DNA from: Candidatus Kuenenbacteria bacterium
GTDB taxonomy: Bacteria > Patescibacteriota > Patescibacteriia > UBA2196 > GWA2-42-15
Direction of reading: 5' to 3'
NCBI GenBank assembly: GCA_012797775.1
Contig: JAAZOM010000022.1
Span: 1,241 to 65,240, forward strand
DNA length: 64,000 nucleotides
Shown piece by piece: positions 10,216 to 51,724 of the stretch. The position numbers and the translations under genes are program-made. A model generated the notes under the pieces. It did not search any database and was not told where the DNA came from. It saw nothing but the letters and a program-made list of their open reading frames with translations. Position 1 is the first letter of the stretch. Each line of letters begins with the position of its first letter.

Positions 10216-10422
10216 ATGAGAGAATTTTTCAAAAAACTGATCAATGCTCTATTCTATATTTCGCTCCTTATCTGGCTGGTTTATTTTGTGCTAGAATTAC
10301 TAAAAGAAGGGTTGGTTTCCAATTACTTTGATTTAAACTTATTATTACTCTCGGTGATTGTAATCGGAGTGATAAATATTATGATTAATTATAGCAGCAA
10401 CCATGATGATACGAGAGGCTGA
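10216..10422 (+). CDS. Small hypothetical membrane protein.
   Basis: 68-aa ORF with two hydrophobic helices. Confidence 0.3.
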   Translation: MREFFKKLINALFYISLLIWLVYFVLELLKEGLVSNYFDLNLLLLSVIVIGVINIMINYSSNHDDTRG

Positions 10423-11167
10423 CATTGCTCGCGAAACCAATGTTGATAAGACCGGGCTAGCACTCTCTGTCACCGATTCAGGTGATGTTAATAGCCTTGC
10501 GCAATACCTTATATTTGAAACAAGTAATAATTTTAGACGTGAAGATACTAAGGCCCCATTAGAATTAAGGATTAAAAAATTAGCAAGGGAAATAGCCGAT
10601 AGAAAAAAGGCTGTTGTTTTGATTCGTGACGGTGATAAAATCATAGGGAGCACGACGGTCAGTGATCTTTTGCCAGACAGCAAGGAAGCCTGGGCTGATG
10701 GTACTTTGGTGGATCCTAGTTATCGTGGTCGTGGCATAGGTTTGCAATTAGCTCTAGCGCAAGAAAAAATAGCTAGATCTGCCGGTCGGGAATCAATAGC
10801 CACCATAGTTGCTGTTGATAATATGCCCAGTATTGCCTTGAGATTAAAAGCCGGTTATATATTAAATGGGATTAATCGCTGGAAAAGCGAGGCCGGTTAT
10901 AAATTTAGAAAAGATCTGACAGCGTCATCTGGCGAGGCGGCTGTTAACTGGGTAGACAAAGTTTTAACTGGTGGGATTGGTATAATTGAGAAAATAGACC
11001 AGCAAAACACCCAAAAAGAAATATTGGTTCCAGCTGACGACCCTGATGTTGTTAATAAAATTATAGCCAAGGGTTATCGGGGGGTTTATTTGTTGATGCC
11101 AGAAAATTTTCGGAACGAAAAAGAACAACCAATTAATAAAAATTGTATTGTATTTGTTAAAGATTAA
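10403..11167 (+). CDS. GNAT family N-acetyltransferase.
   Basis: Acetyl-CoA binding motif VDPSYRGRGIGLQLA. Confidence 0.5.
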   Translation: MMIREADIARETNVDKTGLALSVTDSGDVNSLAQYLIFETSNNFRREDTKAPLELRIKKLAREIADRKKAVVLIRDGDKIIGSTTVSDLLPDSKEAWADGTLVDPSYRGRGIGLQLALAQEKIARSAGRESIATIVAVDNMPSIALRLKAGYILNGINRWKSEAGYKFRKDLTASSGEAAVNWVDKVLTGGIGIIEKIDQQNTQKEILVPADDPDVVNKIIAKGYRGVYLLMPENFRNEKEQPINKNCIVFVKD

Positions 11168-11178
11168 TTTATAATAAT

Positions 11179-11661
11179 ATGATTGACGGCGTAAAAATAA
11201 AAGAATTAAAGATCCACCCAGATGTGCACAAAGAAGGCGAAGAAGTGGTCAAAGAACCGGGTTTTTTGGCCGAGGTTTTACGCGCCGATGAAGGGCTTTT
11301 AAAAAAATTCGGCCAAAGCATTTTCACTCTAGCTTATCCAGGTACGATCAAGGCTTTCCATTGGCACAAGCTCCAAGATGATTTATGGTTTTTTGCTACC
11401 GGCAAAGTTATTGTGGTCTTGCATGATCTGCGGGACGATTCACCGACCAAGGGTGAGACCCAGGTTATAGGAGCCGGAGCAGGGGATTATAAATTAATTT
11501 TAATTCCTGTTGGCGTAGCCCATGGCTACAAAGTGCTTGGTGATGAGTCAGCTATGCTTTTTTATCACGTGACCGAAGTTTATAATAAGGACAATCCTGA
11601 CGAAGAACGGATTCCCTACGATGATCCCCAGATTGGTTTTGATTGGGGAAAATACCAATAG
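11179..11661 (+). CDS. dTDP-4-dehydrorhamnose 3,5-epimerase-like cupin (RmlC family sugar-nucleotide epimerase).
   Basis: HWHKLQDDLWFFATGKVIVVLHDLRDDSPTKG and a later GVAHGY. Confidence 0.5.
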   Translation: MIDGVKIKELKIHPDVHKEGEEVVKEPGFLAEVLRADEGLLKKFGQSIFTLAYPGTIKAFHWHKLQDDLWFFATGKVIVVLHDLRDDSPTKGETQVIGAGAGDYKLILIPVGVAHGYKVLGDESAMLFYHVTEVYNKDNPDEERIPYDDPQIGFDWGKYQ

Positions 11662-11692
11662 AATTAAAAATTAGAAATTTAAAATTATTCTT

Positions 11693-12592
11693 ATGAGTTG
11701 GTTATTAATCACCCTCATCGCCTATTTTTTGAACGCCATTGCCATGGTCATTGACAAGACCTTGCTCAAGCGCGATATAAAAAATCCTTTTGTTTATACT
11801 TTTTATATTGCCGCTCTGGGAGCGGTATTAATGGTTTTTATTCTGCCCTTCGGCTTGAAGTGGCCTGGCTTGAGCCAATTTATTGTCAGCCTCGCCGCCG
11901 GCGCTACTTTCGCTCTGGGTTTATTCTTGATGTTTTTTGGGCTTAAGAAAGAGGACGCTTCTCGGCTCACTCCAGTGATCGGCGGGCTGACTCCAGTTTT
12001 TGTCTTCCTGCTGGCTTATTTATTTTTGGGGGAGCGATTATTTGGTCGTCAAATTATTGCTTTTATTCTCATCATTGTTGGTACCTTTGTAGTTTCCTTA
12101 AGTTTTGGCCGGGGGCATGCCCCTCATCTGCGTCGGGCTTTTTGGCTGGCCCTACCCTCGGCTTTTCTTTTCGGACTTTCCTATGTCTTGACCAAAGATG
12201 TTTACAATCATCAGCCATTTATTTCCGGTTTTGTTTGGACCAGACTCGGTGCCTTCATTGTCGCTATTATGCCCATGTTGTGGGCCAAAAATCGCTATGA
12301 TTTGCTTCATCCACCAAAAGGAGGTGGTATGTCTGGTGCCAAGAGCCGTTTTCTTTTCGGTCAAGCTTGTGGCGGTTCATCTGCTATTTTGATCCAATAT
12401 GCCGTGTCTCTGGCCTCCGTTTCTTTGGTTCAAGCCCTGCAGGGCACTCAATATGTTTTTATCTTTCTGGCCGTTCTTTATCTGACTTATTATCGCCCCA
12501 AAATTTTAAAAGAAACATTCAATCCAGCCATTATCACTCAAAAAATAATTGCTATTATTTTGATTGGTCTAGGTTTATATTTTATAATCTAA
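11693..12592 (+). CDS. EamA/DMT-family membrane transporter.
   Basis: Ten predicted TM helices and duplicated EamA-like halves. Confidence 0.45.
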   Translation: MSWLLITLIAYFLNAIAMVIDKTLLKRDIKNPFVYTFYIAALGAVLMVFILPFGLKWPGLSQFIVSLAAGATFALGLFLMFFGLKKEDASRLTPVIGGLTPVFVFLLAYLFLGERLFGRQIIAFILIIVGTFVVSLSFGRGHAPHLRRAFWLALPSAFLFGLSYVLTKDVYNHQPFISGFVWTRLGAFIVAIMPMLWAKNRYDLLHPPKGGGMSGAKSRFLFGQACGGSSAILIQYAVSLASVSLVQALQGTQYVFIFLAVLYLTYYRPKILKETFNPAIITQKIIAIILIGLGLYFII

Positions 12593-12596
12593 AATC

Positions 12597-13166
12597 ATGT
12601 CTTTGTTTTGGTTGGCTATTCATATTTTTTTCTTAGCTTTAGTCCAAGCTTTTCTTGAAGTTCAAATCGAAGGCCCTCATGGCTGGGCTGCCAAGTTGCC
12701 TGTTTGGCGCCCCAGAGCCGACGGGAAAATTGAACGTTTAAAGAAAATATTAAAAATTAAAAAACCCCTGACCGGCTATCATCTGGGCCTGATTGTTTTT
12801 TGGATTTTTATTTTACACTTACCTTTTGCTTTTGGAGTCAGCTGGAGTTGGAAGGCCGAGCTAGTTGTTTTATCTTTTTTAACCTTCTGGATGTTTATCG
12901 AAGATTTTCTATGGTTTATTATCAATCCACACTTTGGCTTCAAAAAATTTAAATCCGAATATGTCTGGTGGCATGATCGCTGGGCCATTGGTGTGCCGGT
13001 TGATTATTATGTGGCCCTTATTTTTTCTTTCATTTTTTATTTACCTGTTAGATCCACTATAGCTGAAAGCATTATTGAATGGCTGAAAATATTAGCTATT
13101 TTTATTGTTTTAACTTTAATCACCATTTTAATCACCGAACTGGTCAGAATGATTAGAAAAAAATAA
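12597..13166 (+). CDS. Hypothetical membrane protein.
   Basis: ORF with several TM helices. Confidence 0.35.
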   Translation: MSLFWLAIHIFFLALVQAFLEVQIEGPHGWAAKLPVWRPRADGKIERLKKILKIKKPLTGYHLGLIVFWIFILHLPFAFGVSWSWKAELVVLSFLTFWMFIEDFLWFIINPHFGFKKFKSEYVWWHDRWAIGVPVDYYVALIFSFIFYLPVRSTIAESIIEWLKILAIFIVLTLITILITELVRMIRKK

Positions 13167-13176
13167 TTTATCAACC

Positions 13177-13213
13177 AAAAACACCCCCGTTATCTTTCAA
13201 GGGTGTTTTTTTA
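13177..13213. terminator. Bidirectional rho-independent terminator between convergent genes.
   Basis: AAAAACACCC-loop-GGGTGTTTTTTT. Confidence 0.65.
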
Positions 13214-13217
13214 TTGG

Positions 13218-13832
13218 TTATTTAATCAGGAAAACATTATAGCCGCTGGTTTGTTTGGACTTTTGTTTGTGTGCCAATTTATCCAACCATCTGGCCAGTT
13301 TATTAAAAATTTTTTTCTTACCCAAGGGACTCAAATATATCCAAGTTTCTAGGGGCCAGCGCACATTTTGTATTTCTATGGAAGAAAAATTTTTGGCCAA
13401 ATGTTTTAACGAATCTTCGGTGTAGCGCCAAAAATCACCATAGTAACCCTTTTCTGCATGATAGCGATAGAGGAAAGGCACATAAATAAAACAATATCCG
13501 CCGGGCTTCAAGACCCGATACATTTCTTCAAAAGCCTTGAACGGATTTTCAATATGTTCCAAAACAGCAATGCAAATTATAGCGTCCACAGATTTATCCC
13601 CTAGCGGCAGATCGTGTATATCACCGACAATATCCGGATTATAATCTGGCACCGGGTCTAAAATTTTATAATACACCCTCTCCAGATATTTTTTGATCCA
13701 GGCGCGATTGGGGTTATAGCGGTTGCCCTTATTTTCCAAGATCCTAAGTCCGCCCCCAATATCCAAAATTTCTTTTTTCTCCTCGAAAATTTGTTTTATT
13801 TTTTGATTAAAAAATTCATCCCACGGAGTCAT
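13218..13832 (-). CDS. Class I SAM-dependent methyltransferase.
   Basis: ILDIGGG (motif I) and VDAIICIAVLEHI..LKPGG (Methyltransf_11-like). Confidence 0.6.
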   Translation of the reverse strand: MTPWDEFFNQKIKQIFEEKKEILDIGGGLRILENKGNRYNPNRAWIKKYLERVYYKILDPVPDYNPDIVGDIHDLPLGDKSVDAIICIAVLEHIENPFKAFEEMYRVLKPGGYCFIYVPFLYRYHAEKGYYGDFWRYTEDSLKHLAKNFSSIEIQNVRWPLETWIYLSPLGKKKIFNKLARWLDKLAHKQKSKQTSGYNVFLIK

Positions 13833-13936
13833 ATTGTTTCGTCGGTTAATTAAGGCTGGTTTGTCTCTTGGCCAGATTTAAGATACAATATAATTACTCC
13901 TTAAGTTTATAATTTTCAAGATATTTAAGCAAATTT

Positions 13937-14998
13937 ATGCGGCTTTTAATGCTTACAAGGAAAGTTGACAGTCAAGACAGTCGGGCCAGTTTTGTTTCTG
14001 ACTGGCTTTTGGAATTAGCCCAAAACCTAGAAAAATTAGTAGTTATTTGCCAAGAAAAAGGCGATACCAGCGGCTTACCGGAAAACATTGAAATCTTTTC
14101 ATTGGGCAAAGAATTAGGCCATTCAAAAATCAAGCAATTTTTCCGCGCGCAGAAAATATTATTCAAGCTTGTCAAAAAAAGTGACGGCGTCTTGGCCCAC
14201 CAGATGCCTATTTATGGGGTTCTTGCTGGGCCTGCCAGTTGGCTGTCTCACAAAAAATTAATTCAATGGTATGCTCATGGTACTGTTGACTGGCGCTTAA
14301 AGTTGGCGAATTTTTTCGTGACCGAATTTGTCACCTCGTCAGCCGATGGTTTTCGAATGCCAACCAAAAAACCAGTGCGGGTTATTGGGCAGGGTATCAA
14401 CACTAATAAATTCAAAATTCAAAATTCAAAACTCAAAGCAAATGAAGAATTTAATATTTTGACTATTGGTCGTATTTCACCGAGTAAAGATATTGAATCC
14501 ATGATCAAGGCTGTTTATGAATTAAAAGAACAGAATGTCGATAATATAAAATTAACTATCATTGGCGCACCAGCTACGGCCGCTGGTTTTCATTATTCCC
14601 AAAATCTTCAGTCTATGGTGGAGAACATGAATCTGGGCAACCAAATCAATTTTTTTGGCGGCATTCCTCACGCTGAAACAATAAAGCATTTAGCTCAAGC
14701 TGATTTATTTTTAAATTTGAGTGATACAGGTAGTTTGGACAAAACCGTTTTGGAAGCTATGGCTGCTGGTTGCCTAGTCTTGACGAGCAATATTGCTTAC
14801 AAAAATATTTTGCCGCCTGAATTATTCACCACCAAAGACAACCCCCAAACCTTGACCCAAAAGATTAAAGAATTGATGGGCTTATCAGAACAAAAAAAAG
14901 AGGAGTTTAAAAAACAATTACGCGATGAAGTCCTCGCCCATCACAACTTGGCCGACTTTGCCAAAAAAATTGTAGGATTATATAGTAATTTATCCTGA
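13937..14998 (+). CDS. Glycosyltransferase family 4.
   Basis: GT4 C-terminal core: GRISPSKDI...EAMAAGCLVLTS. Confidence 0.65.
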   Translation: MRLLMLTRKVDSQDSRASFVSDWLLELAQNLEKLVVICQEKGDTSGLPENIEIFSLGKELGHSKIKQFFRAQKILFKLVKKSDGVLAHQMPIYGVLAGPASWLSHKKLIQWYAHGTVDWRLKLANFFVTEFVTSSADGFRMPTKKPVRVIGQGINTNKFKIQNSKLKANEEFNILTIGRISPSKDIESMIKAVYELKEQNVDNIKLTIIGAPATAAGFHYSQNLQSMVENMNLGNQINFFGGIPHAETIKHLAQADLFLNLSDTGSLDKTVLEAMAAGCLVLTSNIAYKNILPPELFTTKDNPQTLTQKIKELMGLSEQKKEEFKKQLRDEVLAHHNLADFAKKIVGLYSNLS

Positions 14999-15000
14999 AC

Positions 15001-15080
15001 CCCGATGCGAATCGGGGCGAAGGATCCCACCGTAATCCGCTCTATTTGTGGGATCTTTCGCTAACGCTCAAGATAAACTT
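15001..15080 (+). repeat. Dispersed intergenic element, copy 1: TTATCCTGA, hairpin, GAAGGATCCC, loop, GGGATCTTTCG...CTCAAGATAAA. Its TTATCCTGA supplies the upstream gene's last two codons and TGA stop.
   Basis: Alignable with the copies at 27321-27445 and 34146-34181. Confidence 0.6.
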
Positions 15081-15092
15081 CCAAATAAAAAT

Positions 15093-15959
15093 ATGAAAAT
15101 TGCCCTTATTGGCTCCACTGGACAACTCGGTACGGATTTCAAAAAAGTTATTCCTGCTCAATTTTTGGTTAATTTAGATTATCCTAATTTTGACTTAACC
15201 AAAAAAGATCTTGTCCGCGAACAATTATTAGCTATTAGACCAGACATAGTTATTAATACTGCTGCTTATAATCTAGTTGACCGGGCCGAAGATTTCCCCG
15301 AGGAAGCCCTAGCCGTGAATTATTATGGCGTAAAAAATTTGGTTGATGTTTGTTTAGAATTAGATTGTATTCTGGTTCATTACAGTAGTGATTATATTTT
15401 TGGAGGAGAGGACGATCGCCGCACCCCTTACACCGAAGAAGACCACCCCGCGCCAATCAACCAATATGGCCAGTCAAAATTATTGGGCGAACAGGAAATC
15501 ATTAAACGTTGTCAAAAATATTTTATTATCCGTACTTCTGGCCTTTTTGGCACCGCTGGCTCAGAAGGCAAAGGCGGCAATTTTATTGAATCAATTATTA
15601 AAAAAGGTAAAGAAACTGGCGAATTAAAAATTGTTGATGACCAATTTCTTACCCCTACCTATACCTTGGATTTGGCCCGCCAAAGTTGGCAGTTGATGCA
15701 AACCGAACATTTTGGTCTCTACCATGCCACCTCGGAGTGGGAGTGTAGTTGGTATGAATTTGGGAGAGAAGTGATGAAATACATTGATCCCAATATCAAA
15801 ATTATCCCGGTTAAAACTTCTGAATATCAATTGCCCGCCCAAAGACCCAAATATTGTGTTTTGGAAAATAAAAAATTAAAAGAATTAGGTTTAAATATTA
15901 TGCGCCCTTGGGCCGCCACCATTCCTGACTATCTCCAAGAGAAAGGATATCTCCAATAA
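15093..15959 (+). CDS. rfbD: dTDP-4-dehydrorhamnose reductase (RmlD family).
   Basis: MKIALIGSTGQLG..., YSSDYIFGG, YGQSK and VDDQFLTPTY are typical of RmlD. Confidence 0.65.
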   Translation: MKIALIGSTGQLGTDFKKVIPAQFLVNLDYPNFDLTKKDLVREQLLAIRPDIVINTAAYNLVDRAEDFPEEALAVNYYGVKNLVDVCLELDCILVHYSSDYIFGGEDDRRTPYTEEDHPAPINQYGQSKLLGEQEIIKRCQKYFIIRTSGLFGTAGSEGKGGNFIESIIKKGKETGELKIVDDQFLTPTYTLDLARQSWQLMQTEHFGLYHATSEWECSWYEFGREVMKYIDPNIKIIPVKTSEYQLPAQRPKYCVLENKKLKELGLNIMRPWAATIPDYLQEKGYLQ

Positions 15960-15961
15960 TT

Positions 15962-18402: not shown

Positions 18403-18404
18403 AT

Positions 18405-19349: not shown

Positions 19350-19352
19350 TCT

Positions 19353-21200: not shown

Positions 21201-21262
21201 TGTATAAAATAAGCAAATTTTTTTATTGTCATTTTTATTAAATTATTTTTTATTTAAAAAAT

Positions 21263-21679
21263 ATGTATAATATTTTTAGTTATATCTGGGCCATTATTAA
21301 AAACATTATTGTTTTGTTTATTATATTTTTGATTTTCAACCAAGCTTACTCGTCTTTTGAAACTATTGTTTTTTGTTTTTTAATATTAATTTACATTAGT
21401 ATAAGCCAATTTTTTTCAAGCAACGCTTATGCGCAGATGACCCAAACTCTTTTGTTAACGGAAAGAATTATAAACCTAAAAAAATTATTCAATAAATCTG
21501 AAAATGAAAATTCTTTAAATCCTGATTATATAGAAAACAACGAGGTTGATTTTGAAAAAGAAGAAATAAAAGAGGCTAAGGACAGAATGAAACCCCATGT
21601 TGTCAAATTTTATATCAACTCGGTTTTTAATTTTGTAATTTTTGTGGTTTGCATTTTTTATCTATTTGGAGAATTATAA
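21263..21679 (+). CDS. Hypothetical small membrane protein, extremely AT-rich.
   Basis: ORF with two hydrophobic segments; roughly 22% GC. Confidence 0.3.
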   Translation: MYNIFSYIWAIIKNIIVLFIIFLIFNQAYSSFETIVFCFLILIYISISQFFSSNAYAQMTQTLLLTERIINLKKLFNKSENENSLNPDYIENNEVDFEKEEIKEAKDRMKPHVVKFYINSVFNFVIFVVCIFYLFGEL

Positions 21680-25345: not shown

Positions 25346-25348
25346 TTT

Positions 25349-45742: not shown

Positions 45743-47962
45743 ATGATAAACACCAATTTGACCCGCTATTTAAGAAATAGCCTGTGGGTTTGTTTATACT
45801 TAATACTTATTACGCCCCTTTTGATCGGGAATAATTTTTTATTTCCTTTTATTTCCCTAAAAACTTTTTATTTTCGTATTTTGGTGGAAATAGCTCTTTT
45901 TTTCTATATTCTGCTTGCCTTTTCCCATTCCTCATATCGCCCAAAGATAAACAGACTAACGCTCTTGGTTTCCATTTTCGGTTTGGTAGTTTTGTTGACC
46001 GGCCTTTTGGGTGTTAATTCTTATCGGAGCTTTTGGGGCACAATTGAGAGAGGGGAGGGTTTTTTGACTATTTCTCATATTATTATTTTTTTCTTTCTTT
46101 TATCCCAAGCCTTTCAGAATAAGCGCCAATGGCTAAATTATTTTTCTGCCTCAATTATTGTTAGTTTTTTTGTTGGTCTTTATGCTTTGGGCCAAGAATT
46201 TACACAAATTTCTTGGATAGTTGGAGCTGGCGAGGGCCGACTTTCTTCCACTCTTGGCAATGCCGCTTATTTAGGGGCCTACTCCCTTGGTCATTTGTGG
46301 CTCTGCGCTATTATTTTATTTGAAAACAAAAAAATATATTGGCGTATTCTTTTTGGGATTTTTTCCCTCTTCGAGCTTTATATCTTATGGCAGTCGGAAA
46401 CCAGAGGCGCCCTACTCGGCCTACTTTTCACACTAGTTTTAATTCTAATACTCTTACCATTTTTTTCTCAGAAAAAGAAAACAAGGATAGTTTCAATTCT
46501 GGCCATATTAATATTGGTTCTCTCTTTTCTTTTTGTTTGGTCGAATCGGCATTCTGGCTGGATCGCCAAATCTAATACCCTAAATCGTTTGGCCAATATT
46601 TCCCTAGAAGATATCACCACTCAGTCGCGCCTACTCGCTTGGGACTCTTCTTGGCAGGGCTGGAAAGACCGATTTTTGCTGGGCTATGGCTGGGAGAACT
46701 ACAATATCGCTTTTAATAAATATTTTCACCCGGAAATTTTCCGTGATAATGGTTCACAAATTTGGTTCGATCGCGCCCACAATACCTTATTTGACGTCGC
46801 TGTCGCCACTGGCATTGGCGGCCTAATTATTTATCTGGCTATTTTTGGGGCAGCCCTGTTTTATCTCTTCCGCTTTTTGAGGAGAGACAGGGAGAATATG
46901 GCTATTTATTTAATCACCATTGCTTTTTTAATCGCTCACTTTGTCCAAAACTTTTTTGTTTTTGACTGCCTGGCCACCTATATTATGCTTTTTATGGTTT
47001 TGGCGTTCGTATCTTTTATTATCAGCAAGCATCAAAAAAACATTCAACCCCAAATCAAGGAAGAAATAGTCCCCTTTAATTATTTGGTTTGTTGCCTCGG
47101 CTTTGTTTTTCTGATTTTATCTGGTTTCTTCTTTAATATCAAACCTGCCAAAGCCAATATTTCCGGCCTTGATGGCCTCAGATATTTTTATCAAGGAAAA
47201 ATAAACGAAGGTGTTGATAAAATGGTTGCCGCTATTAATATGGGCACCTACCAATCAACAGAAATTCGCCAAAAACTCACTGACAATATTATCAACACAG
47301 ACAAGAGCGGCTATCCGGGTAATGCCGAACAGCTAAAGCGCAATTTTTCTATTGCCGTACAGGAAACCCAAAAAAATATAGAATTATCACCCAAGGATGT
47401 CCAAAATTATCTATATTTGATGATAATTTATAATAATTATTCTTTTATGGACGCCTCTTTGCCCAGTCAAGTATTGCGGCTTGGTGGCGAGGCTCAGAAG
47501 CTGGCGCCAAACAGGCCCCATGTTTATTTTGAGATGGGACAGGCGGCTATTAACTCTGGTAGTCCCAAACAAGGTGTTGAATATTTTAAAAAAGGGGTTG
47601 GCCTTAATCCGGATAATCTAGATTCGCAATGGATGCTTTTGACAGCCTATATTATTACCGGTGACGAGAAATCCTCAGAATCTCAATATCAGACGATGAT
47701 CAAATTGGGCTTATCGGAAAATATTCAAAACCTTGAACGCCTGATTCGTCTTTATTATCTGACAAAAAATTATGATCAGATGATATATTTTTATAAAAAA
47801 ATTATTGACCTCGAACCGCAAAACACTGATCATTGGTCCAAGCTTTCTGGCGTTTTAAAAGAAAAAAATGATCCTATTCTTTTCAACCAAACAATGTCAG
47901 AGCTGCTTGAAAAATATCCTGCCATGTCTACCAAGCTATTGCCAGCAGTTATCACGAAATAA
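45743..47962 (+). CDS. O-antigen ligase/polymerase-like (Wzy_C domain) membrane protein with C-terminal TPR repeats.
   Basis: About 12 TM helices, the Wzy_C hallmark loop (RAHNTLFDVAVATGIGGL), and C-terminal TPR-like repeats. Confidence 0.6.
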   Translation: MINTNLTRYLRNSLWVCLYLILITPLLIGNNFLFPFISLKTFYFRILVEIALFFYILLAFSHSSYRPKINRLTLLVSIFGLVVLLTGLLGVNSYRSFWGTIERGEGFLTISHIIIFFFLLSQAFQNKRQWLNYFSASIIVSFFVGLYALGQEFTQISWIVGAGEGRLSSTLGNAAYLGAYSLGHLWLCAIILFENKKIYWRILFGIFSLFELYILWQSETRGALLGLLFTLVLILILLPFFSQKKKTRIVSILAILILVLSFLFVWSNRHSGWIAKSNTLNRLANISLEDITTQSRLLAWDSSWQGWKDRFLLGYGWENYNIAFNKYFHPEIFRDNGSQIWFDRAHNTLFDVAVATGIGGLIIYLAIFGAALFYLFRFLRRDRENMAIYLITIAFLIAHFVQNFFVFDCLATYIMLFMVLAFVSFIISKHQKNIQPQIKEEIVPFNYLVCCLGFVFLILSGFFFNIKPAKANISGLDGLRYFYQGKINEGVDKMVAAINMGTYQSTEIRQKLTDNIINTDKSGYPGNAEQLKRNFSIAVQETQKNIELSPKDVQNYLYLMIIYNNYSFMDASLPSQVLRLGGEAQKLAPNRPHVYFEMGQAAINSGSPKQGVEYFKKGVGLNPDNLDSQWMLLTAYIITGDEKSSESQYQTMIKLGLSENIQNLERLIRLYYLTKNYDQMIYFYKKIIDLEPQNTDHWSKLSGVLKEKNDPILFNQTMSELLEKYPAMSTKLLPAVITK

Positions 47963-47964: not shown

Positions 47965-50190
47965 ATGTTTGTATTCAAAAAGATAAAATTTTTATATTTA
48001 CTTGTGGTGATTAATTTTATTTCCATAAATTTTTTGCCTTATAACCCAGTTGGCGCCGCCGGTGTTTCATCGGTTGGGGAAGACTATCTTGGTAGTGAAA
48101 TGCTTTTAAAGTTAAAAAATAATGATTTTGTTTATGAGATTAAATTGCGAGACGAAACACCCCAAGAATTTATAAATAACAATATAAAAAATGATGCCGT
48201 TGATTTTATAGAGCCCAATTATATTTATCGCGCTTCTATTTTAGAGCCCAATGACCAGTATTATTCTCAGCAGGTTTACCTTTCTATTCTAAATACCCCC
48301 ATGGCCTGGGATTATACTACTGGCAGTGGTGATGTGGTGGTCGCCGTCATTGATAGTGGGGTTGATATAAAAAATCCCGATTTGGTCAATAATATCTGGC
48401 ACAACACAAAAGAAATTCCCAATAACGGCATTGATGATGACAGCAATGGTTTTGTTGATGACTATTCTGGCTGGGATTTTATTGAAGGCGTACCAGACCC
48501 CAGCCCAAAGTTTACGGGTAATTATACCTTTATGGGTATCAATCATGGTACGATTATTGCCGGGGTTATCGCCGCAGAAGGTAATAACAAAATCGGGATA
48601 ACTGGTCTTAGCTGGCACTCAAAGATAATGCCCCTTAGGGTTTTGAGCGGCGAGGGTACGGGTGATTCATATGATGTGGCTAGGGCTATTGATTATGCTC
48701 GCCTCAATGGAGCCAAAATTATAAACTTGAGCTTTATCGGAGATAAAAAATCAGAAACACTCAAGGAGGCCATCCGTCGGGCCTACCAATCTGGTATTTT
48801 ATTGGTAGCAGCGGCTGGCAATGAAGTCAATCAAGGTGAAGATCTGAAGGATAAACCGCTGTACCCAGTCTGTATGGACGGTGATAGCCCTGGCGACAAC
48901 TGGGTATTGGGTGTTGCCTCTTTGGATAACTATGATCACTTGGCTAGTTTTTCCAATTACGGTAGTTGTGTGGATATCACGACCCCGGGCGTTGGAATTT
49001 TTAGTACTCTAGTGAAAAACGATGCTCGTTTTGAATATCGCAATGAATACGGTGGGCTCTGGACAGGCACTTCCATGTCTGTACCCCAAGTCGCTGGTGC
49101 GGCGGCTTTGTTAAGATCCCTAAAGCCAGAATTGTCAGTTTTGGAGTTGCGCGATCTTCTTCTCAAAAATTCTGACAACATAGACCATCTCAACTCTAAA
49201 TATGCCGGCAGACTGGGTCGGGGCAAGTTAAATATCTTTAGGGTACTATCTGCTGCCAAAAACTCACTTAGCTCTATCGAATATCGTACAGACAAAATAA
49301 TTGTTGCCCCAGGTGTTGGTGGTGGACCCCAGATTAGAACTTATTATGAGGGCAAGCCCTATTCCCAATTTTTTGGGTTTGATAAAAATAAAAGATTTGG
49401 GGCCAATATCGCCAGTCGTGATTTGACCGGTGATGGGCAAGAAGAGTTGATCGTGTCCGCAGAAAAAGGGGAGGAGCCTTGGGTGCAGATTTTTGATATT
49501 AATGGCAATTATAAAGCAAAATTTTTGGCTTATGATAAAAATATGAAACAAGGCGTTAAGGCCAGTGCCGGTGATATAAACAATGACGGCCAAGAGGAAA
49601 TAATCACCGTACCACAGTCTGGTTACAAGCCCTTGGTAAAGATATTCAATCAAACTGGTAATCTCTTGGGTGAGTTTTATGCCTTTAATCAATTTTTTAG
49701 AGGTGGTTTAAGTATTAGTATAGGTGACGTAAACAACGATACTTTTGAAGAAATAGTTGTCGGCGCCGGGCCTGGTACGCAGAGCTTTGTAAAAATATTT
49801 AATTACCATGGTCAGCTTTCCGGTCAGTTTATTGCCTACAAGGAGAATTTCTTTGGTGGAGTCAATGTTGCTATTGGGGATGTCGACAGTGATAGCCAAA
49901 AAGAAATAATTTTAGCCCCCATGGGTAAAATGGCTCCCGAAGTTAAAATTTTTAATTTCCAAGGCCTTTTAAAATCTAGTTTTTTGGCTTATGACAAAAA
50001 ATTTATAAACGGTGTTAATGTCGCCGCCGGCGATATTAATAATGATGGTTATGATGAGATAATCACCGGCCCGGGCGCTGGCGGCGGTCCGCAGGTCAGG
50101 GTTTTTAATATCAAAGGTAAGGCGCTTATGCAGTTTATGGTTTTTAATGATAAATTTAAAGGTGGAGTAAAGGTTTCTTCAGGCAAATAA
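47965..50190 (+). CDS. Secreted S8 subtilisin-like serine protease with C-terminal FG-GAP-like repeats.
   Basis: Signal peptide. Catalytic Asp (VAVIDSGVD), His (HGTIIAGV) and Ser (GTSMSVPQVAGAAAL). Six or more copies of GD(I/V)NNDGxEEI. Confidence 0.75.
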   Translation: MFVFKKIKFLYLLVVINFISINFLPYNPVGAAGVSSVGEDYLGSEMLLKLKNNDFVYEIKLRDETPQEFINNNIKNDAVDFIEPNYIYRASILEPNDQYYSQQVYLSILNTPMAWDYTTGSGDVVVAVIDSGVDIKNPDLVNNIWHNTKEIPNNGIDDDSNGFVDDYSGWDFIEGVPDPSPKFTGNYTFMGINHGTIIAGVIAAEGNNKIGITGLSWHSKIMPLRVLSGEGTGDSYDVARAIDYARLNGAKIINLSFIGDKKSETLKEAIRRAYQSGILLVAAAGNEVNQGEDLKDKPLYPVCMDGDSPGDNWVLGVASLDNYDHLASFSNYGSCVDITTPGVGIFSTLVKNDARFEYRNEYGGLWTGTSMSVPQVAGAAALLRSLKPELSVLELRDLLLKNSDNIDHLNSKYAGRLGRGKLNIFRVLSAAKNSLSSIEYRTDKIIVAPGVGGGPQIRTYYEGKPYSQFFGFDKNKRFGANIASRDLTGDGQEELIVSAEKGEEPWVQIFDINGNYKAKFLAYDKNMKQGVKASAGDINNDGQEEIITVPQSGYKPLVKIFNQTGNLLGEFYAFNQFFRGGLSISIGDVNNDTFEEIVVGAGPGTQSFVKIFNYHGQLSGQFIAYKENFFGGVNVAIGDVDSDSQKEIILAPMGKMAPEVKIFNFQGLLKSSFLAYDKKFINGVNVAAGDINNDGYDEIITGPGAGGGPQVRVFNIKGKALMQFMVFNDKFKGGVKVSSGK

Positions 50191-50192
50191 TT

Positions 50193-50678
50193 ATGATAGG
50201 CAAAATTTTTTATAACCTTTATAATAAATTGGCGGACAAGATCAGGAATATACCCATAGTTCGCAAGCACCCTACCGCCAAAGAATTAATAAAATATTCG
50301 ATTGTTGGCAATTTCAGTAATATTTTAGATCTTGTTTTATATGTCATTTTGACTCGCTCTTTTATTTTTTGGCATGAAAATTATCTTTTTGCCAATGTCC
50401 TTACGATGGTTGTCGGCAGTCTTAGCCGTTTCTTTCTCCATAAAAAATGGACATTCCGCCACGACACTGGCTCTTTTCATGAGCAATATCTTAGATTTAT
50501 TGCCGTTATGTTCGTCAGCCTTATCTTGAGCACCGTTCTATTGTTTTTAACTGTAGAATACTTGCTTGTTAATGATATTGTGGGTAAACTTATTGCTACC
50601 GCTATTATTACCCTTATTGTCTATTATTTAACCAAAATTTGGGTGTTCAAAAAAGGTATTCCTTGTAATAAATTTTAA
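50193..50678 (+). CDS. GtrA-family membrane protein.
   Basis: About 160 aa, four TM helices, N-terminal KYSIVGNFSNILDL. Confidence 0.45.
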   Translation: MIGKIFYNLYNKLADKIRNIPIVRKHPTAKELIKYSIVGNFSNILDLVLYVILTRSFIFWHENYLFANVLTMVVGSLSRFFLHKKWTFRHDTGSFHEQYLRFIAVMFVSLILSTVLLFLTVEYLLVNDIVGKLIATAIITLIVYYLTKIWVFKKGIPCNKF

Positions 50679-50701
50679 TAATTAAGTTAATTAACAAAAA
50701 T

Positions 50702-51724
50702 ATGACTACTATTGATAAAGCTTCTTTGGCCACTGGCCGCCAAAATGTTATTTTGACTGGGGCCGCCGGGTTTATCGGTTCCAATCTCGCTGAGGCGCTA
50801 GTCAAAAATTACAATGTTATTGCCATTGATAATTTTATTACCGGTAAAGAAAAAAATATTGACATGCTTTTGCAGCTGCCAAATTTTGAGTTTATTAGAC
50901 ATGATATTTCCCAACCTTTAAAATTGGAAGATTTTCCCGAATTAAAAAAATTCCAGATTGATGTTCAGGGTATAAATAAAATTTTTAATCTAGCTTGCCC
51001 GACAGCTCCCAAAGACCACGCCAAATATGCCATGGAAATAATTGCCGCCAATTCTATCGGCATGCAAAACATGCTGAACCTGGCCCTAAAATACAAAGCG
51101 ACCTTTGTCCATGTCTCCAGCCAACATGTCTATGGCATGCCCAAAGACACCAACCCCATCAAGGAAGACTATTTCGGTTATGTCAATCCGGTGAGCCCGC
51201 GCAGCGCCTATGATGAGGGCAAAAGATTTGCCGAGTCTATCGTTAGTGAATATCAAAGGCAGTTCGGGCTGGACGCTAGGGTCGCCCGGGTTTTCACCAC
51301 CTACGGCCCGCGCATGGCCCTCAAAGAAGGTCGTTCTGTCCCTGATTTTATTATCAACGCCCTCAACGGCGAAGATTTGATTATTTATGGTGATGAGAAT
51401 ACCAAAAATACCTTCTGCCATGTCGACGATATCGTTGACGGCCTTATAAAATTGGCCAACTCACCCCTCAATACGCCAGTCAATTTGGGACATTATGAAA
51501 AGTATACTCTCAAAAGCACTGCGGAATTGATCATCAAGCTGACTGAATCAAAATCTAAAATAATTTATCGTGATCCAGAGTGGTATGTTGCTTCCTATAA
51601 TATCCCCGACATCTCTTTGGCCAAAGAATCCCTTGGCTGGTTCCCCTTGATCGGTCCAGAAGAAGGATTGTCAAAAACCATAGAGTTTACCAAAATCAAT
51701 CTGAGATTGTATCAGTCTCAATAA
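50702..51724 (+). CDS. UDP-glucuronate decarboxylase (UDP-xylose synthase)-like NAD-dependent epimerase/dehydratase.
   Basis: ILTGAAGFIGSNL..IDNFITGKEKNI, followed by a YxxxK-like catalytic motif (YDEGK). Confidence 0.55.
   Translation: MTTIDKASLATGRQNVILTGAAGFIGSNLAEALVKNYNVIAIDNFITGKEKNIDMLLQLPNFEFIRHDISQPLKLEDFPELKKFQIDVQGINKIFNLACPTAPKDHAKYAMEIIAANSIGMQNMLNLALKYKATFVHVSSQHVYGMPKDTNPIKEDYFGYVNPVSPRSAYDEGKRFAESIVSEYQRQFGLDARVARVFTTYGPRMALKEGRSVPDFIINALNGEDLIIYGDENTKNTFCHVDDIVDGLIKLANSPLNTPVNLGHYEKYTLKSTAELIIKLTESKSKIIYRDPEWYVASYNIPDISLAKESLGWFPLIGPEEGLSKTIEFTKINLRLYQSQ

What the first reader, a model, noticed from the sequence alone, without database searches (positions are those of the whole stretch)
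10403..51724. Roughly 40-kb glycoconjugate cluster with a Pgl-like logic: initiating phosphotransferase, many GTs, MsbA/PglK-type ABC flippase, Wzy_C/TPR transferase, GT-C ArnT/PMT-like enzymes.
The gene set combines a WbaP/PglC-type initiating enzyme (44235-45686), at least 14 glycosyltransferases, an MsbA/PglK-like fused ABC exporter (38837-40657) and a Wzy_C-domain membrane protein with TPR repeats (45743-47962). Wzy_C is the family shared by WaaL ligases and PglL/PilO O-oligosaccharyltransferases. Two confident ArnT/PMT-like GT-C enzymes carry the loop-1 DE motif (7777-9498 and 27456-29141); a third large membrane protein (22497-24485) may be a third. There is no Wzx or Wzz, and no Wzm/Wzt pair. 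Inference: a lipid-linked oligosaccharide is built on the cytoplasmic face, flipped by the PglK-like ABC transporter, and transferred en bloc by the Wzy_C/TPR protein. The acceptor could be protein or lipid. The GT-C enzymes then add sugars from polyprenol-phosphate donors made by the GT2 GtrB-like enzyme (18405-19349) with GtrA (50193-50678). Wzy_C-TPR fusions adjacent to a secreted S8 protease with FG-GAP repeats, in a Gram-positive-like or CPR-like organism, do not match any characterised pathway I can name.
Basis: inference. Interest (0 to 1): 0.65.

Follow-up and report, generated by a model that had tools for sequence, protein, structure and literature searches.

The report
Surface-glycan gene island in a CPR bacterium
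A tiny uncultured bacterium (Candidatus Kuenenbacteria) carries a large gene island for building and exporting a heavily methylated surface sugar chain; the parts and logic are known kinds, but five genes at its centre are conserved across its relatives and offer a way to study their cell surface.

Summary
The gene content is real. The interval holds a WbaP-class initiating phosphoglycosyltransferase (PGT), 10 Pfam-supported GT-A/GT-B glycosyltransferases, and a fused MsbA-type ABC exporter. It also holds a Wzy_C membrane protein with an outward-facing TPR domain, a secreted S8/FG-GAP protease, GtrA, and an ArnC/GtrB-like GT2. Three GT-C enzymes are present, one of them outside the interval. 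No Wzx, Wzz or Wzm/Wzt was found.

The organism is a Candidatus Kuenenbacteria (Patescibacteria).

The region is not one 40-kb unit. In 83 related loci a small core recurs: the PGT transcribed divergently from Wzy_C-TPR > S8/FG-GAP > GtrA > epimerase. The roughly 34-kb arm beyond the PGT varies, and it carries either a Wzx or a fused ABC exporter.

I read it as an en-bloc ligase or O-oligosaccharyltransferase, most likely acting on proteins. The acceptor is unproven.

The logic matches known systems: Gram-positive S-layer glycosylation (WsaP/WsaE/ABC/WsfB), H. pylori WecA-Wzk-WaaL, and Gtr/Pgf three-component systems. I rate it a new variant of a known kind, of moderate interest.

The parts
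44235..45686 (-). Large (WbaP-class) polyprenyl-phosphate phosphoglycosyltransferase. It initiates the lipid-linked glycan and belongs to the conserved core, transcribed divergently from Wzy_C-TPR.
   Evidence: Bac_transf 228 bits plus CoA_binding_3. TIGR03025 392 bits, above the 295.55 cut-off. A divergent PGT lies within 1.5 kb in 45 of 69 related loci.
45743..47962 (+). Wzy_C membrane domain (13 TM helices) with a C-terminal extracytoplasmic TPR solenoid. Proposed en-bloc glycan transferase (ligase or O-OTase).
47965..50190 (+). Secreted subtilase (S8) fused to an FG-GAP beta-propeller. It starts 2 nt after the Wzy_C-TPR stop. Conserved partner of unknown role: candidate maturation protease or acceptor.
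   Evidence: Peptidase_S8 166 bits, FG-GAP 68 bits. Found downstream in 30 of 73 loci, and in 26 of 27 cases together with the PGT. The triad D130/H194/S370 is >=95% conserved in 32 orthologues.
50193..50678 (+). GtrA-family small membrane protein, a putative lipid-linked sugar flippase. Core member.
   Evidence: GtrA_DPMS_TM 74 bits. Present at the same position in L003, L005, L006, L009, L011, L012, L023, L043 and more distant loci.
50702..51724 (+). NAD-dependent sugar-nucleotide epimerase/dehydratase. Core member, probably supplying the initiating sugar.
   Evidence: Epimerase 144 bits. A tblastn match with at least 50% query coverage in 44 of 83 related loci; in the core-type loci it lies downstream of Wzy_C-TPR.
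38837..40657 (-). Fused type-IV (MsbA/ABCB-like) ABC exporter. Proposed flippase or exporter for the completed lipid-linked glycan.
   Evidence: ABC_membrane plus ABC_tran. NCBIfam HepA family 495 bits, MsbA 409, PglK 253, all below their cut-offs. The gene immediately beyond the PGT in relatives is a Wzx in 7 and a fused ABC in 2 of 41 loci. An ABC homologue lies in the arm in L006, L008 and L079.
37198..38901 (-). GT1-domain plus SAM-methyltransferase fusion, flanking the ABC gene.
   Evidence: Glyco_trans_1_4 and Glycos_transf_1 plus Methyltransf_11. 57% identical orthologue in L006.
40648..42348 (-). GT1-domain plus FkbM-methyltransferase fusion, flanking the ABC gene.
   Evidence: Methyltransf_21 50 bits plus Glycos_transf_1 32 bits.
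42352..44209 (-). SAM methyltransferase (42352-43086) and GT4 (43061-44209) next to the PGT.
   Evidence: Orthologues in L006 at 65% and 73% identity.
32528..37201 (-). Methyltransferase (32528), unassigned 344-aa protein (33161), GT2 (34146), radical SAM (35151), DUF2334/deacetylase-like protein (36458).
   Evidence: The 33161 protein has no hit in Pfam, NCBIfam or the PDB.
10403..22492 (+). Left part of the variable arm.
- GNAT (10403), RmlC-like cupin (11179), EamA transporter (11693), small membrane protein (12597).
- Methyltransferase (13218, minus strand), GT4 (13937), RmlD (15048), GT4 (15962), GT4 (17248).
- ArnC/GtrB-like GT2 (18357/18405-19349), AsnB-type amidotransferase (19353).
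- Small membrane protein (21263), methyltransferase (21809).
22497..24485 (+). 662-aa GT-C-fold membrane glycosyltransferase of an unclassified family.
   Evidence: No Pfam or NCBIfam hit. Only 3 close homologues, and 254 remote representatives. AF2 pLDDT 87.8, pTM 0.92. The top 12 Foldseek PDB hits are all GT-C: DPY19, STT3, AglB, PglB, ALG9, AftA.
24491..27314 (+). Methyltransferase (24491), DUF6580 membrane protein (25349), B12-binding radical SAM enzyme (25860).
27456..29141 (+). GT-C (PMT/ArnT-like) membrane glycosyltransferase with a D-E motif after TM1.
   Evidence: PMT 24.4 bits against a 22.7 cut-off. It aligns with the 7777 family, where P-D-E is invariant.
29138..32522 (+). Two GT4 enzymes (29138, 30282) and a 4,6-dehydratase/epimerase (31551).
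7777..9498 (+). GT-C (GT39/PMT_2-related) enzyme outside the stated interval. It is conserved in Kuenenbacteria and is not part of the core.
   Evidence: 100% identical to an NCBI Kuenenbacteria protein. Homologues carry PF13231/PF02516. Invariant P47-D48-E49.

Best explanation
This is a chromosomal surface-glycan locus of a Candidatus Kuenenbacteria (Patescibacteria/CPR) bacterium. It has two layers.

**Layer 1: a vertically inherited core**
- A WbaP-class PGT is transcribed divergently from a tight operon.
- The operon reads Wzy_C-TPR, secreted S8/FG-GAP protease, GtrA, NAD-epimerase.

**Layer 2: a lineage-variable arm of about 34 kb beyond the PGT**
- It holds sugar-nucleotide enzymes, 10 GT-A/GT-B transferases, 7 SAM-methyltransferase domains and 2 radical-SAM enzymes.
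- It also holds an amidotransferase, an acetyltransferase and a fused ABC exporter.

**Proposed mechanism**
1. The epimerase supplies the initiating UDP-sugar (inferred).
2. The PGT makes polyprenyl-PP-sugar. The enzyme class is shown; the substrate is inferred.
3. Cytoplasmic GTs and the two GT-methyltransferase fusions flanking the ABC gene build and methylate or cap the chain (inferred).
4. The MsbA/HepA-like ABC exporter moves it across the membrane. In relatives a Wzx does this job. This step is inferred from alternation in the arm.
5. Wzy_C-TPR, a WaaL/PglL-class enzyme whose TPR faces outward, transfers the glycan en bloc to an acceptor. Fold, catalytic residues and topology are shown or predicted; the activity is inferred.

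The acceptor is most likely a secreted or surface protein, which would make the enzyme an O-oligosaccharyltransferase like WsfB or PglL.

Independently, the ArnC/GtrB-like GT2, a small flippase (GtrA or EamA) and three GT-C enzymes add single sugars outside the cell from polyprenyl-phosphate donors. This route is a known three-component logic, and it is not conserved with the core.
For: **Identities of the parts**
-.

**Wzy_C-TPR**
- Confident model: pLDDT 91.3.
- The profile of the membrane domain hits only WaaL (E=5e-12) and a solved 'oligosaccharyltransferase' 9rmk_A (E=9e-9) in the PDB. The His of the invariant DRAH motif aligns with theirs.
- R221, R296 and H346 are invariant in 43-45 homologues.
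- There are thirteen TM helices, and K/R-rich short loops on the inner side place the TPR outside.

**Precedent for the architecture**
- WsfB and PglL are Wzy_C O-OTases with a C-terminal TPR (PMC2943079).
- TfpO, PglL and TfpW all have multi-TM domains followed by a large periplasmic C-terminal domain (preprint 10.1101/2020.04.19.049825).

**Core conservation**
- Divergent PGT in 45 of 69 loci and S8/FG-GAP in 30 of 73.
- With both flanks available, 26 loci have PGT plus S8, 15 have PGT only, 1 has S8 only and 21 have neither.
- Identity of Wzy_C-TPR correlates with PGT (r=0.92) and with S8 (r=0.90) over 27 loci.
- The gap between the Wzy_C-TPR stop and the S8 start is <=20 nt in 22 of 33 loci.

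**Variable arm**
- The gene immediately beyond the PGT is a Wzx in 7 of 41 loci and a fused ABC in 2. Elsewhere it is DegT, a dehydratase, a GT or a PMT.
- The arm shares orthologues only with the closest genome, L006.
- GC is lower there: 0.374 against 0.416.

**Why a conserved transferase points to a ligase**
- A transferase kept constant beside changing glycan genes fits a glycan-promiscuous ligase or OTase keyed to the reducing-end sugar set by the conserved PGT.
- It does not fit a repeat-unit-specific Wzy (inference).

**GT-C route**
-.
- GT2 with a C-terminal hairpin.
Against: - No acceptor is identified, and no S-layer or pilin gene lies in the window.
- Pfam models specific to PglL-type enzymes did not hit at E<=1e-3.
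- WaaL, a lipid-directed ligase, scores better than the solved oligosaccharyltransferase.
- Some relatives pair this protein with a Wzx and have no other Wzy-like gene in the roughly 8-10 kb arm, which is also what a Wzy polymerase would look like.
- TPR domains also scaffold polysaccharide export, so the TPR does not prove a protein acceptor.
- The ABC exporter fails the equivalog cut-offs for PglK, MsbA and HepA. Its substrate is inferred from context only.
- Thirty of the 38 loci with enough sequence beyond the PGT show neither the ABC homologue nor the Wzx used as query.
- All evidence is computational, from MAGs.
Confidence: 0.45

Rival explanations
1. Wzy_C-TPR is a lipid-directed ligase like WaaL or TacL. 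It moves the flipped glycan onto a membrane glycolipid or another non-protein anchor, giving a lipoglycan or LTA-like polymer in a cell without an outer membrane. The TPR acts as a scaffold or chain-handling module.
For: - WaaL is the best structural and sequence match.
- The Gram-positive Wzy_C protein TacL ligates teichoic-acid chains to a glycolipid (PMC5727136).
- No protein acceptor gene was recognised in the locus.
Against: - Per PMC5727136, WaaL, RfaL and TacL are 397-419 aa, a length that leaves no room for a large extra-membrane domain.
- This family always has a 13th helix plus a roughly 270-aa external TPR.
- That architecture is documented for the protein-directed enzymes WsfB, PglL, TfpO and TfpW.
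- A secreted protease/propeller protein is tightly coupled downstream.
Confidence: 0.22
2. Wzy_C-TPR is a Wzy-type polymerase. It polymerises flipped repeat units into an exopolysaccharide or capsule. The ABC protein (or Wzx in relatives) only flips single units. The TPR replaces a Wzz/PCP partner or guides the polymer through the wall.
For: - Pfam Wzy_C also covers polymerases.
- Relatives with a Wzx next to the PGT (7 of 41 loci) have no other Wzy-like gene in the arm.
- No LCP-type or other ligase was seen in the window.
Against: - The protein is a conserved, vertically co-diverging core gene beside unrelated GT sets. Wzy polymerases normally vary with the repeat unit (established knowledge).
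- It keeps the WaaL/PglL Arg/His set, and the only solved structures it matches by sequence are a ligase and an oligosaccharyltransferase.
- No Wzz or PCP is present in the window, the next 10 kb, or the Wzx-type relatives examined.
- GT-methyltransferase fusions flanking an ABC exporter resemble cytoplasmic polymerisation with methyl capping, as in WsaE, which needs no Wzy.
Confidence: 0.18
3. The 40 kb is not one assembly line. It is a mosaic of two or more independent glycan systems parked in one variable island: a polyprenyl-PP pathway and one or more polyprenyl-P/GT-C decoration systems. These may act on different targets such as peptidoglycan-linked polymers, lipids or proteins. The reader's single linear pathway would then be an over-reading.
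For: - The GT-C enzymes and the ArnC-like GT2 are not found near the core in relatives. Only L061 has a 27456 homologue.
- There are three transcription blocks: plus strand 10403-32522, minus strand 32528-45686, plus strand from 45743.
- GT-C 7777 sits outside the island next to ribosomal genes and is conserved on other contigs in Kuenenbacteria.
- The left and right halves of the arm differ in GC.
Against: - Clustering of about 35 glycan genes between housekeeping flanks is itself evidence of functional association.
- Known systems such as P. alvei slg and Shigella O-antigen plus Gtr combine both routes on one glycan.
- This reading is compatible with the best explanation rather than exclusive of it.
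Confidence: 0.35

Closest known systems
S-layer protein O-glycosylation (slg) clusters of Geobacillus stearothermophilus NRS 2004/3a and Paenibacillus alvei CCM 2051 (WsaP/WsfP, WsaC-F, Wzm/Wzt, WsaB/WsfB)
   Same: - Monoderm host.
- WbaP-like initiating PGT, rml genes and an AsnB homologue (WsfA).
- Multidomain GT-methyltransferase (WsaE) next to the ABC genes.
- ABC-mediated export of a completed lipid-linked glycan.
- Final transfer by a Wzy_C enzyme, which in WsfB carries a C-terminal TPR (PMC2943079).
   Different: - The exporter here is a fused type-IV MsbA/HepA-like protein, not a Wzm/Wzt pair.
- No S-layer structural gene is adjacent.
- A secreted S8/FG-GAP protease and GtrA are operon partners.
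- Three GT-C enzymes and two radical-SAM enzymes are present.
Helicobacter pylori O-antigen pathway WecA - Wzk - WaaL
   Same: An initiating phosphotransferase, cytoplasmic assembly of the whole chain, a PglK-homologue fused ABC flippase instead of Wzx or Wzm/Wzt, then a Wzy_C ligase (PMC2841628).
   Different: - The acceptor there is lipid A-core in a diderm. Kuenenbacteria have no LPS genes in view, and this enzyme has an external TPR.
- The initiator is the WbaP (PGT) class, not WecA (PNPT).
- The genes are clustered here and scattered in H. pylori.
Neisseria general O-glycosylation (PglB/C/D, PglA/E, PglF, PglL) and P. aeruginosa TfpO/PilO
   Same: [quoted passage not shown]
- That enzyme is promiscuous toward the glycan.
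- A solved oligosaccharyltransferase (9rmk_A) is one of only two PDB sequences matched.
   Different: - The flippase there is Wzx-like (PglF), which resembles the Wzx-bearing relatives more than this window.
- No PglL-specific Pfam domain was detected here.
- Host and acceptor differ.
Anabaena heterocyst-envelope polysaccharide island (hepC-hepA)
   Same: - The best NCBIfam match of the ABC exporter is the HepA family, at 495 bits.
- hepC (PGT-type) and hepA (ABC) are adjacent among GT and rml-like genes (PMC4390870).
- The PGT C-terminus also matches HepC, at 84.5 bits.
   Different: - Both scores fall below the equivalog cut-offs (725 and 140).
- The HEP product is a polysaccharide layer of a diderm.
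- No Wzy_C-TPR partner is described there in the text read.
Three-component extracytoplasmic glycosylation (GtrA/GtrB/GtrC; ArnC/ArnT; S. mutans PgfS-PgfM1-PgfE-PgfM2)
   Same: - A GT2 with a C-terminal TM hairpin makes polyprenyl-P-sugar.
- A small flippase (GtrA) moves it across the membrane.
- A GT-C enzyme transfers the sugar outside the cell.
- The Pgf system also includes an epimerase and glycosylates surface proteins (PMC5856776).
   Different: - Here the components are dispersed (18357, 50193; 7777, 22497, 27456).
- They score below the ArnC and PgfS equivalog cut-offs.
- One GT-C belongs to no described family.
- GtrA sits in the PGT/Wzy_C core rather than beside the GT2.
Streptococcus pneumoniae TacL
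   Same: A Wzy_C-domain enzyme of a monoderm that ligates a Und-PP-built polymer to an acceptor outside the membrane (PMC5727136).
   Different: TacL is 397 aa with no external domain, and its acceptor is a glycolipid.

Membership tests
Wzy_C superfamily (PF04932) | Significant match to the Wzy_C profile above the gathering score | tested here: met
   74.1 bits against a 31.7 cut-off, residues 212-365.
WaaL/PglL-class en-bloc transferases | WaaL-like fold of the membrane domain | tested here: met
WaaL/PglL-class en-bloc transferases | Conserved Arg residues and a catalytic His in or near the large external loop | tested here: met
   R221, R296 and D343-R344-A345-H346 are invariant in 43-45 homologues. 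The His aligns with AHN of WaaL and SHN of 9rmk_A.
PglL/WsfB-type O-oligosaccharyltransferase | An extra C-terminal TM helix followed by a large extracytoplasmic (TPR-like) domain | tested here: met
   AF2 predicts 13 TM helices followed by a helical repeat region at 487-738. The loop charge pattern puts the C-terminus outside. Precedent. The topology is predicted, not measured.
PglL/WsfB-type O-oligosaccharyltransferase | Match to PglL-specific sequence models | tested here: not met
   The Pfam scan at E<=1e-3 returned only Wzy_C and TPR families. NCBIfam gave only weak TPR and IctB hits.
PglL/WsfB-type O-oligosaccharyltransferase | Transfer of a lipid-linked glycan to Ser/Thr/Tyr of a protein | not testable with these tools
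   Needs biochemistry or glycoproteomics.
Wzx/Wzy-dependent polymerisation | Wzx flippase and Wzz/PCP co-polymerase in the locus | tested here: not met
   No Polysacc_synt or Wzz in any scanned window ORF or in the next 10 kb. Relatives have a Wzx but no Wzz in the arms examined.
PglK (NF050066) LLO flippase | Score above the equivalog cut-off | tested here: not met
   253 bits against a 1000 cut-off. Only the general fused type-IV exporter architecture is shared.
MsbA (TIGR02203) | Score above the equivalog cut-off | tested here: not met
   409 bits against a 602 cut-off.
HepA-family ABC exporter (NF045513) | Score above the equivalog cut-off | tested here: not met
   495 bits against a 725 cut-off. 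This is the best-scoring family, with full-length alignment 22-604.
ABC-transporter-dependent O-PS/S-layer glycan export (Wzm/Wzt) | Separate ABC2_membrane permease and Wzt ATPase | tested here: not met
   No ABC2_membrane or Wzt_C hit anywhere in the window.
Large (WbaP-class) polyprenyl-phosphate phosphoglycosyltransferases | N-terminal TM bundle, CoA_binding_3-like domain and C-terminal Bac_transf catalytic domain; TIGR03025 above cut-off | tested here: met
   Bac_transf 228 bits, CoA_binding_3 25.5 bits. TIGR03025 392 bits against 295.55. The WbaP and WcaJ equivalogs fall below their cut-offs, so sugar specificity is unknown. Five hydrophobic segments.
GT-C glycosyltransferases (27456-29141) | Match to a GT-C family profile and an acidic motif in the first external loop | tested here: met
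   PMT 24.4 bits against 22.7. D-E after TM1 aligns with the invariant P-D-E of the 7777 family.
GT-C glycosyltransferases (7777-9498) | Match to a GT-C family profile and an acidic motif in the first external loop | tested here: inconclusive
   No direct Pfam or NCBIfam hit. Homologues at E 1e-70 to 1e-130 carry PMT_2/STT3 and are named GT39. P47-D48-E49 is invariant. Membership rests on transitive homology.
GT-C glycosyltransferases (22497-24485) | GT-C fold | tested here: met
   AF2 pLDDT 87.8, pTM 0.92. The top 12 Foldseek PDB hits are all GT-C, E 2e-6 to 2e-3, and the next hits have E>0.1. TM-scores are modest (0.33-0.47, normalised to the query) and there is no sequence-family membership.
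GtrB/ArnC-type polyprenyl-phosphate glycosyltransferases | GT2 catalytic domain followed by a C-terminal TM hairpin; equivalog score | tested here: inconclusive
   Glycos_transf_2 121 bits. Hydrophobic hairpin at 238-296. ArnC 239 bits against 529 and PgfS 187 against 500, both below cut-off. The architecture is met; the equivalog is not.
GtrA family | PF04138 above the gathering score | tested here: met
   74.3 bits against 26.1.

The most novel reading that the evidence does not exclude
The five-gene core is PGT | Wzy_C-TPR, S8/FG-GAP protease, GtrA and epimerase. On this reading it is a dedicated envelope-biogenesis machine shared across a large part of Patescibacteria (the Kuenenbacteria, Falkowbacteria, Buchananbacteria and Parcubacteria MAG loci that carry it).

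- The outward-facing TPR of a WaaL-like transferase would recruit secreted proteins for O-glycosylation.
- The obligately coupled subtilase/beta-propeller would either mature those glycoproteins or be the principal acceptor.
- GtrA would serve as the flippase in minimal loci that lack both Wzx and ABC.

That would be a glycosylation-plus-proteolysis coupling not described for any characterised O-OTase system. It would give a handle on how these episymbionts build their variable surface.
Probability: 0.2. Interest if true: 0.7.

Novelty: new variant of a known kind. Interest (0 to 1): 0.45.

Why it matters
CPR/Patescibacteria are abundant, mostly uncultured, tiny bacteria. They are thought to live attached to host cells, and their surface chemistry is essentially unknown.

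- **A conserved initiator and transferase pair.** It sits beside a hypervariable, methylation-rich glycan arm that swaps Wzx for ABC exporters. This looks like the O-antigen or S-layer-glycan diversity engines of cultured bacteria. It suggests surface-glycan variation is under similar selection in CPR, from phage, host recognition or predation.
- **An untested functional link.** The secreted S8/FG-GAP protease is tightly coupled to the Wzy_C-TPR gene in 26 of 63 fully flanked loci. The triad is conserved and the genes are often only a few nucleotides apart.
- **Practical use.** A promiscuous O-OTase from a monoderm-like lineage, and an unclassified GT-C family (22497), could interest glycoengineering.

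None of this overturns current models, because every step has a characterised analogue.

Tried and rejected
1. **Single-sequence PDB searches.** The search for 27456 found nothing, and the one for 33161 gave only chance hits.
2. **Permissive Pfam scan.** At E<=5 it gave no hit for 7777, 22497, 9531, 12597 or 33161. GT-C status therefore had to come from remote homologues, an alignment motif and a fold search.
3. **Word-indexed homologue search for 22497.** It found only 3 relatives. An exhaustive HMMER run was needed to build an alignment.
5. **Literature searches.** Searches for Patescibacteria or CPR with O-antigen ligase, oligosaccharyltransferase or S-layer glycosylation found nothing relevant. 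I cannot say whether the core module has been described elsewhere.
6. **Filing the exporter as PglK or MsbA.** Considered and rejected, because both fall below their equivalog cut-offs.
7. **A PEP-CTERM/exosortase connection.** Considered because of two matches.
   - The PGT scores 387 bits against a 393 cut-off on TIGR03013.
   - The TPR weakly hits PrsT at 35 bits.
   - Not pursued: no exosortase or PEP-CTERM protein was seen among the window ORFs scanned.
The decisive phylogeny was not done.
9. **Promoter scan of the 56-bp divergent intergenic region.** It gave only consensus-level matches and is not used as evidence.

Full report
**What is in the window**

All ORFs of 100 aa or more were listed. 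Nearly all non-overlapping ones were scanned against Pfam, and the key ones against NCBIfam.

- The left flank is housekeeping: S13, S11, S4, RpoA, L17 and S9 at 2840-6478.
- The right flank is also housekeeping: MetK, GltX, MetG and TatD from 51748 onward.
- Between them lies a dense block of glycan genes in three transcription blocks:
  - plus strand 10403-32522;
  - minus strand 32528-45686;
  - plus strand from 45743.
- The sequence matches metagenome contig ERZ928041 k127_80803.
- The 573-aa protein at 7777 is 100% identical to a Candidatus Kuenenbacteria protein in NCBI.
- The nearest related loci are Kuenenbacteria MAGs. The lineage is Patescibacteria, Parcubacteria group.

**Observation check**

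- **PGT (44235-45686, minus).** It has Bac_transf at 228 bits plus CoA_binding_3, and passes TIGR03025 at 392 bits against a 295.55 cut-off. It fails the WbaP and WcaJ equivalogs, so its sugar is unknown.
- **ABC exporter (38837-40657, minus).** It is a fused ABC_membrane + ABC_tran protein. MsbA is its best half-transporter in the PDB.
  - NCBIfam scores are HepA family 495 bits, MsbA 409 and PglK 253.
  - All three fall below their cut-offs.
  - 'MsbA/PglK-type' is therefore correct as an architecture, not as family membership.
- **Wzy_C/TPR, S8/FG-GAP and GtrA.** All are confirmed.
- **GT2 at 18357/18405.** It is ArnC/PgfS-like with a C-terminal hydrophobic hairpin.
- **Glycosyltransferase count.** Inside the interval I count ten Pfam-supported GT-A/GT-B enzymes. 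Two of them are GT1-methyltransferase fusions that flank the ABC gene. There are also two GT-C enzymes. 'At least 14' needs the PGT and genes outside the interval.
- **Absent components.** No Wzx, Wzz or Wzm/Wzt is present in the window or in the 10 kb beyond its 3' end.

**The GT-C enzymes**

- **27456.** It passes Pfam PMT narrowly, 24.4 bits against 22.7.
- **7777.** It has no direct family hit. Homologues at 33-43% identity (E about 1e-70 to 1e-130) carry PMT_2/STT3 and are annotated GT39. In an alignment of 30 family members plus 27456, P47-D48-E49 just after TM1 is invariant. This supports the 'loop-1 DE motif'.
- **22497.**
  - It has only three close homologues.
  - An exhaustive HMMER search found 254 remote representatives.
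  - A 50-sequence alignment gave a confident model, pLDDT 87.8 and pTM 0.92.
  - Its twelve best PDB matches are all GT-C enzymes: DPY19, STT3, AglB, PglB, ALG9 and AftA.
  - The next matches have E above 0.1.
  - It is a GT-C of an undescribed family.

**The Wzy_C-TPR protein**

More than 450 homologues exist, almost all 690-800 aa with the same Wzy_C + TPR architecture. The named ones come from Kuenenbacteria or Patescibacteria.

- **Model.** The AF2 model is confident, pLDDT 91.3 and pTM 0.90. It shows 13 TM helices, the last running into a helical-repeat domain at 487-738.
- **Topology.** Short K/R-rich loops alternate with conserved uncharged loops. This pattern places the N-terminus inside the cell. 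It places the 80-residue loop (268-347) and the TPR domain outside.
- **Sequence matches.** A profile of the membrane domain matches only two PDB sequences: WaaL (E 5e-12) and 9rmk_A, a 610-aa 'oligosaccharyltransferase' (E 9e-9). The invariant D343-R-A-H346 aligns on their catalytic His region.
- **Invariant residues.** R221 and R296 are also invariant.

The protein is thus a WaaL/PglL-class enzyme by fold and active-site residues. These data cannot separate a lipid acceptor from a protein acceptor.

**Synteny: the main new result**

I fetched 80 loci from species-representative genomes plus three contigs encoding homologues. All window proteins were compared with them.

- A PGT lies divergently within 1.5 kb of Wzy_C-TPR in 45 of 69 loci with enough upstream sequence.
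- An S8/FG-GAP gene follows in 30 of 73.
- With both flanks available, the (PGT, S8) counts are:

| PGT | S8 | Loci |
|---|---|---|
| yes | yes | 26 |
| yes | no | 15 |
| no | yes | 1 |
| no | no | 21 |

- The S8 gene starts within 20 nt of the Wzy_C-TPR stop in 22 of 33 cases. In the window the gap is 2 nt, and again 2 nt before GtrA.
- GtrA and the 340-aa epimerase follow in many of these loci.
- The module persists where Wzy_C-TPR is only 29-31% identical, in loci labelled Buchananbacteria, Falkowbacteria and Parcubacteria.
- Identity of Wzy_C-TPR correlates with that of the PGT (r=0.92), S8 (r=0.90) and the epimerase (r=0.76) over 27 loci. This indicates vertical co-inheritance.
- The S8 orthologues keep the Asp/His/Ser triad and a signal-like N-terminus.

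The arm beyond the PGT behaves differently.

- It is shared only with the closest genome. In L006 the radical SAM, DUF2334, GT-methyltransferase, ABC, methyltransferase and GT4 genes are 46-83% identical.
- It has lower GC, 0.374 against 0.416.
- The gene immediately beyond the PGT in 41 loci is a Wzx in 7 and a fused ABC in 2. In the rest it is an aminotransferase, a dehydratase, a GT or a PMT.
- One Kuenenbacteria genome has no glycan genes there at all.
- Wzx-type relatives carry GT4s, three methyltransferases, AsnB-like and radical-SAM genes. They have no second Wzy-like gene and no Wzz.
- The window's GT-C enzymes and ArnC-like GT2 are not linked to the core elsewhere.

**Mechanism**

*Shown*
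- The enzyme classes and folds.
- The conserved catalytic residues.
- The predicted outward TPR.
- The conserved core.
- The alternation of Wzx and ABC in the arm.

*Inferred*
- The PGT primes a polyprenyl phosphate.
- Cytoplasmic GTs and methyltransferases build the chain. The GT-methyltransferase fusions beside the ABC gene recall WsaE-type methyl capping.
- The ABC exporter translocates it.
- Wzy_C-TPR transfers it en bloc.

I favour a transferase over a polymerase for two reasons. The protein is constant while the glycan genes change, and it co-diverges with the PGT that fixes the reducing-end sugar. Both are expected of a promiscuous ligase or OTase, not of a repeat-unit-specific Wzy.

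I favour a protein acceptor for two reasons. The 13th helix plus external TPR is the architecture reported for WsfB, PglL, TfpO and TfpW. The lipid-directed enzymes are far shorter: WaaL, RfaL and TacL are 397-419 aa. A secreted protein is also tightly coupled downstream.

My estimates are about 0.7 for a ligase/OTase-type transferase and about 0.45 for the full statement with a protein acceptor.

**Comparison with known systems**

Several do.

- **Gram-positive S-layer glycosylation clusters.** They combine a WbaP-like PGT, rml genes, an AsnB homologue, a GT-methyltransferase, an ABC exporter and a Wzy_C O-OTase with a TPR (PMC2943079).
- **H. pylori.** It uses a PglK-homologue ABC flippase with WaaL (PMC2841628).
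- **Anabaena HEP island.** It pairs hepC (PGT) with hepA (ABC) (PMC4390870).
- **Gtr/Arn/Pgf systems.** They explain the GT2 + GtrA + GT-C route (PMC5856776).

The differences here are:
- the fused exporter in place of Wzm/Wzt;
- the CPR host;
- the conserved protease/propeller and GtrA partners;
- the density of methylation and radical-SAM chemistry;
- an unclassified GT-C.

**Verdict**

- The locus is a new variant of a known kind, of moderate interest (0.45).
- The most valuable lead is the conserved core module, not the 40-kb gene list.
- Literature searches found no description of it, but coverage is limited.
- The deciding phylogeny and any biochemistry remain to be done.

Noticed in passing
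window 25349-27314: A DUF6580 multi-pass membrane protein (154 bits) overlaps by 14 nt the start of a B12-binding radical SAM enzyme. This suggests a coupled pair, possibly cofactor uptake plus a cobalamin-dependent sugar methylase.
   Followed up: no
window 11179-11661: A 160-aa RmlC-like cupin (dTDP_sugar_isom 69 bits) also scores above the gathering cut-off on Pfam Polysacc_synt_C (31 bits against 28.7), a Wzx/MurJ membrane-domain model. The same weak hit appears in the precomputed annotations. It is probably a profile quirk and is not a hidden Wzx.
   Followed up: partly
window 51748-52905, and L003, L005, L009, L011, L012, L031, L043: S-adenosylmethionine synthetase (MetK) sits directly after the conserved core in the window and in related Kuenenbacteria-type loci. 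In the window it lies next to an island with 7 SAM-methyltransferase domains and 2 radical-SAM enzymes.
   Followed up: partly
window 33161-34195 (-): A 344-aa soluble protein inside the glycan island has no hit in Pfam, NCBIfam or the PDB, and no homologue in the 83 related loci.
   Followed up: partly
L038 + L085 (same contig); also L030/L059, L035/L053, L032/L082, L047/L065, L061/L069, L042/L067, L055/L083: Many Patescibacteria MAGs carry two Wzy_C-TPR paralogues. In several pairs (e.g. L038/L085, L061/L069) one sits in the PGT core and the other lacks it; S8 accompanies the PGT in some pairs only.
   Followed up: partly
window 22497-24485: This GT-C-fold protein belongs to a family with no Pfam or NCBIfam model. 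It has only about 250 representative clusters in 1.8 billion proteins. N53, P144, H158, G359-G360 and R575 are invariant.
   Followed up: yes
window 11693-12592; 12597-13166; 21263-21679; 9531-10193: A 10-TM EamA-family transporter and three small membrane proteins without family assignment lie in or beside the island. They are candidate flippases or accessory subunits for the polyprenyl-phosphate sugar route.
   Followed up: no
window 23-622 and 568-657: The 199-aa ORF at 23-622 has no family hit and overlaps a tRNA-Ser(gct) gene on the opposite strand. It is probably not a real gene.
   Followed up: no
L086 10987-12045 and 17763-20613 (beyond the 3' end of the window); L004 18196-20589: Just past the window the contig encodes a PF00953 (MraY/WecA-family) transferase and a GT2 / DUF2304 / GT2 set. 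The same set recurs next to a distant Wzy_C-TPR locus.
   Followed up: no
window 27401-45686: GC content falls to 0.374 (minimum 0.343 at 40-42 kb) against about 0.416 in the flanks. This is typical of exchangeable glycan clusters.
   Followed up: partly
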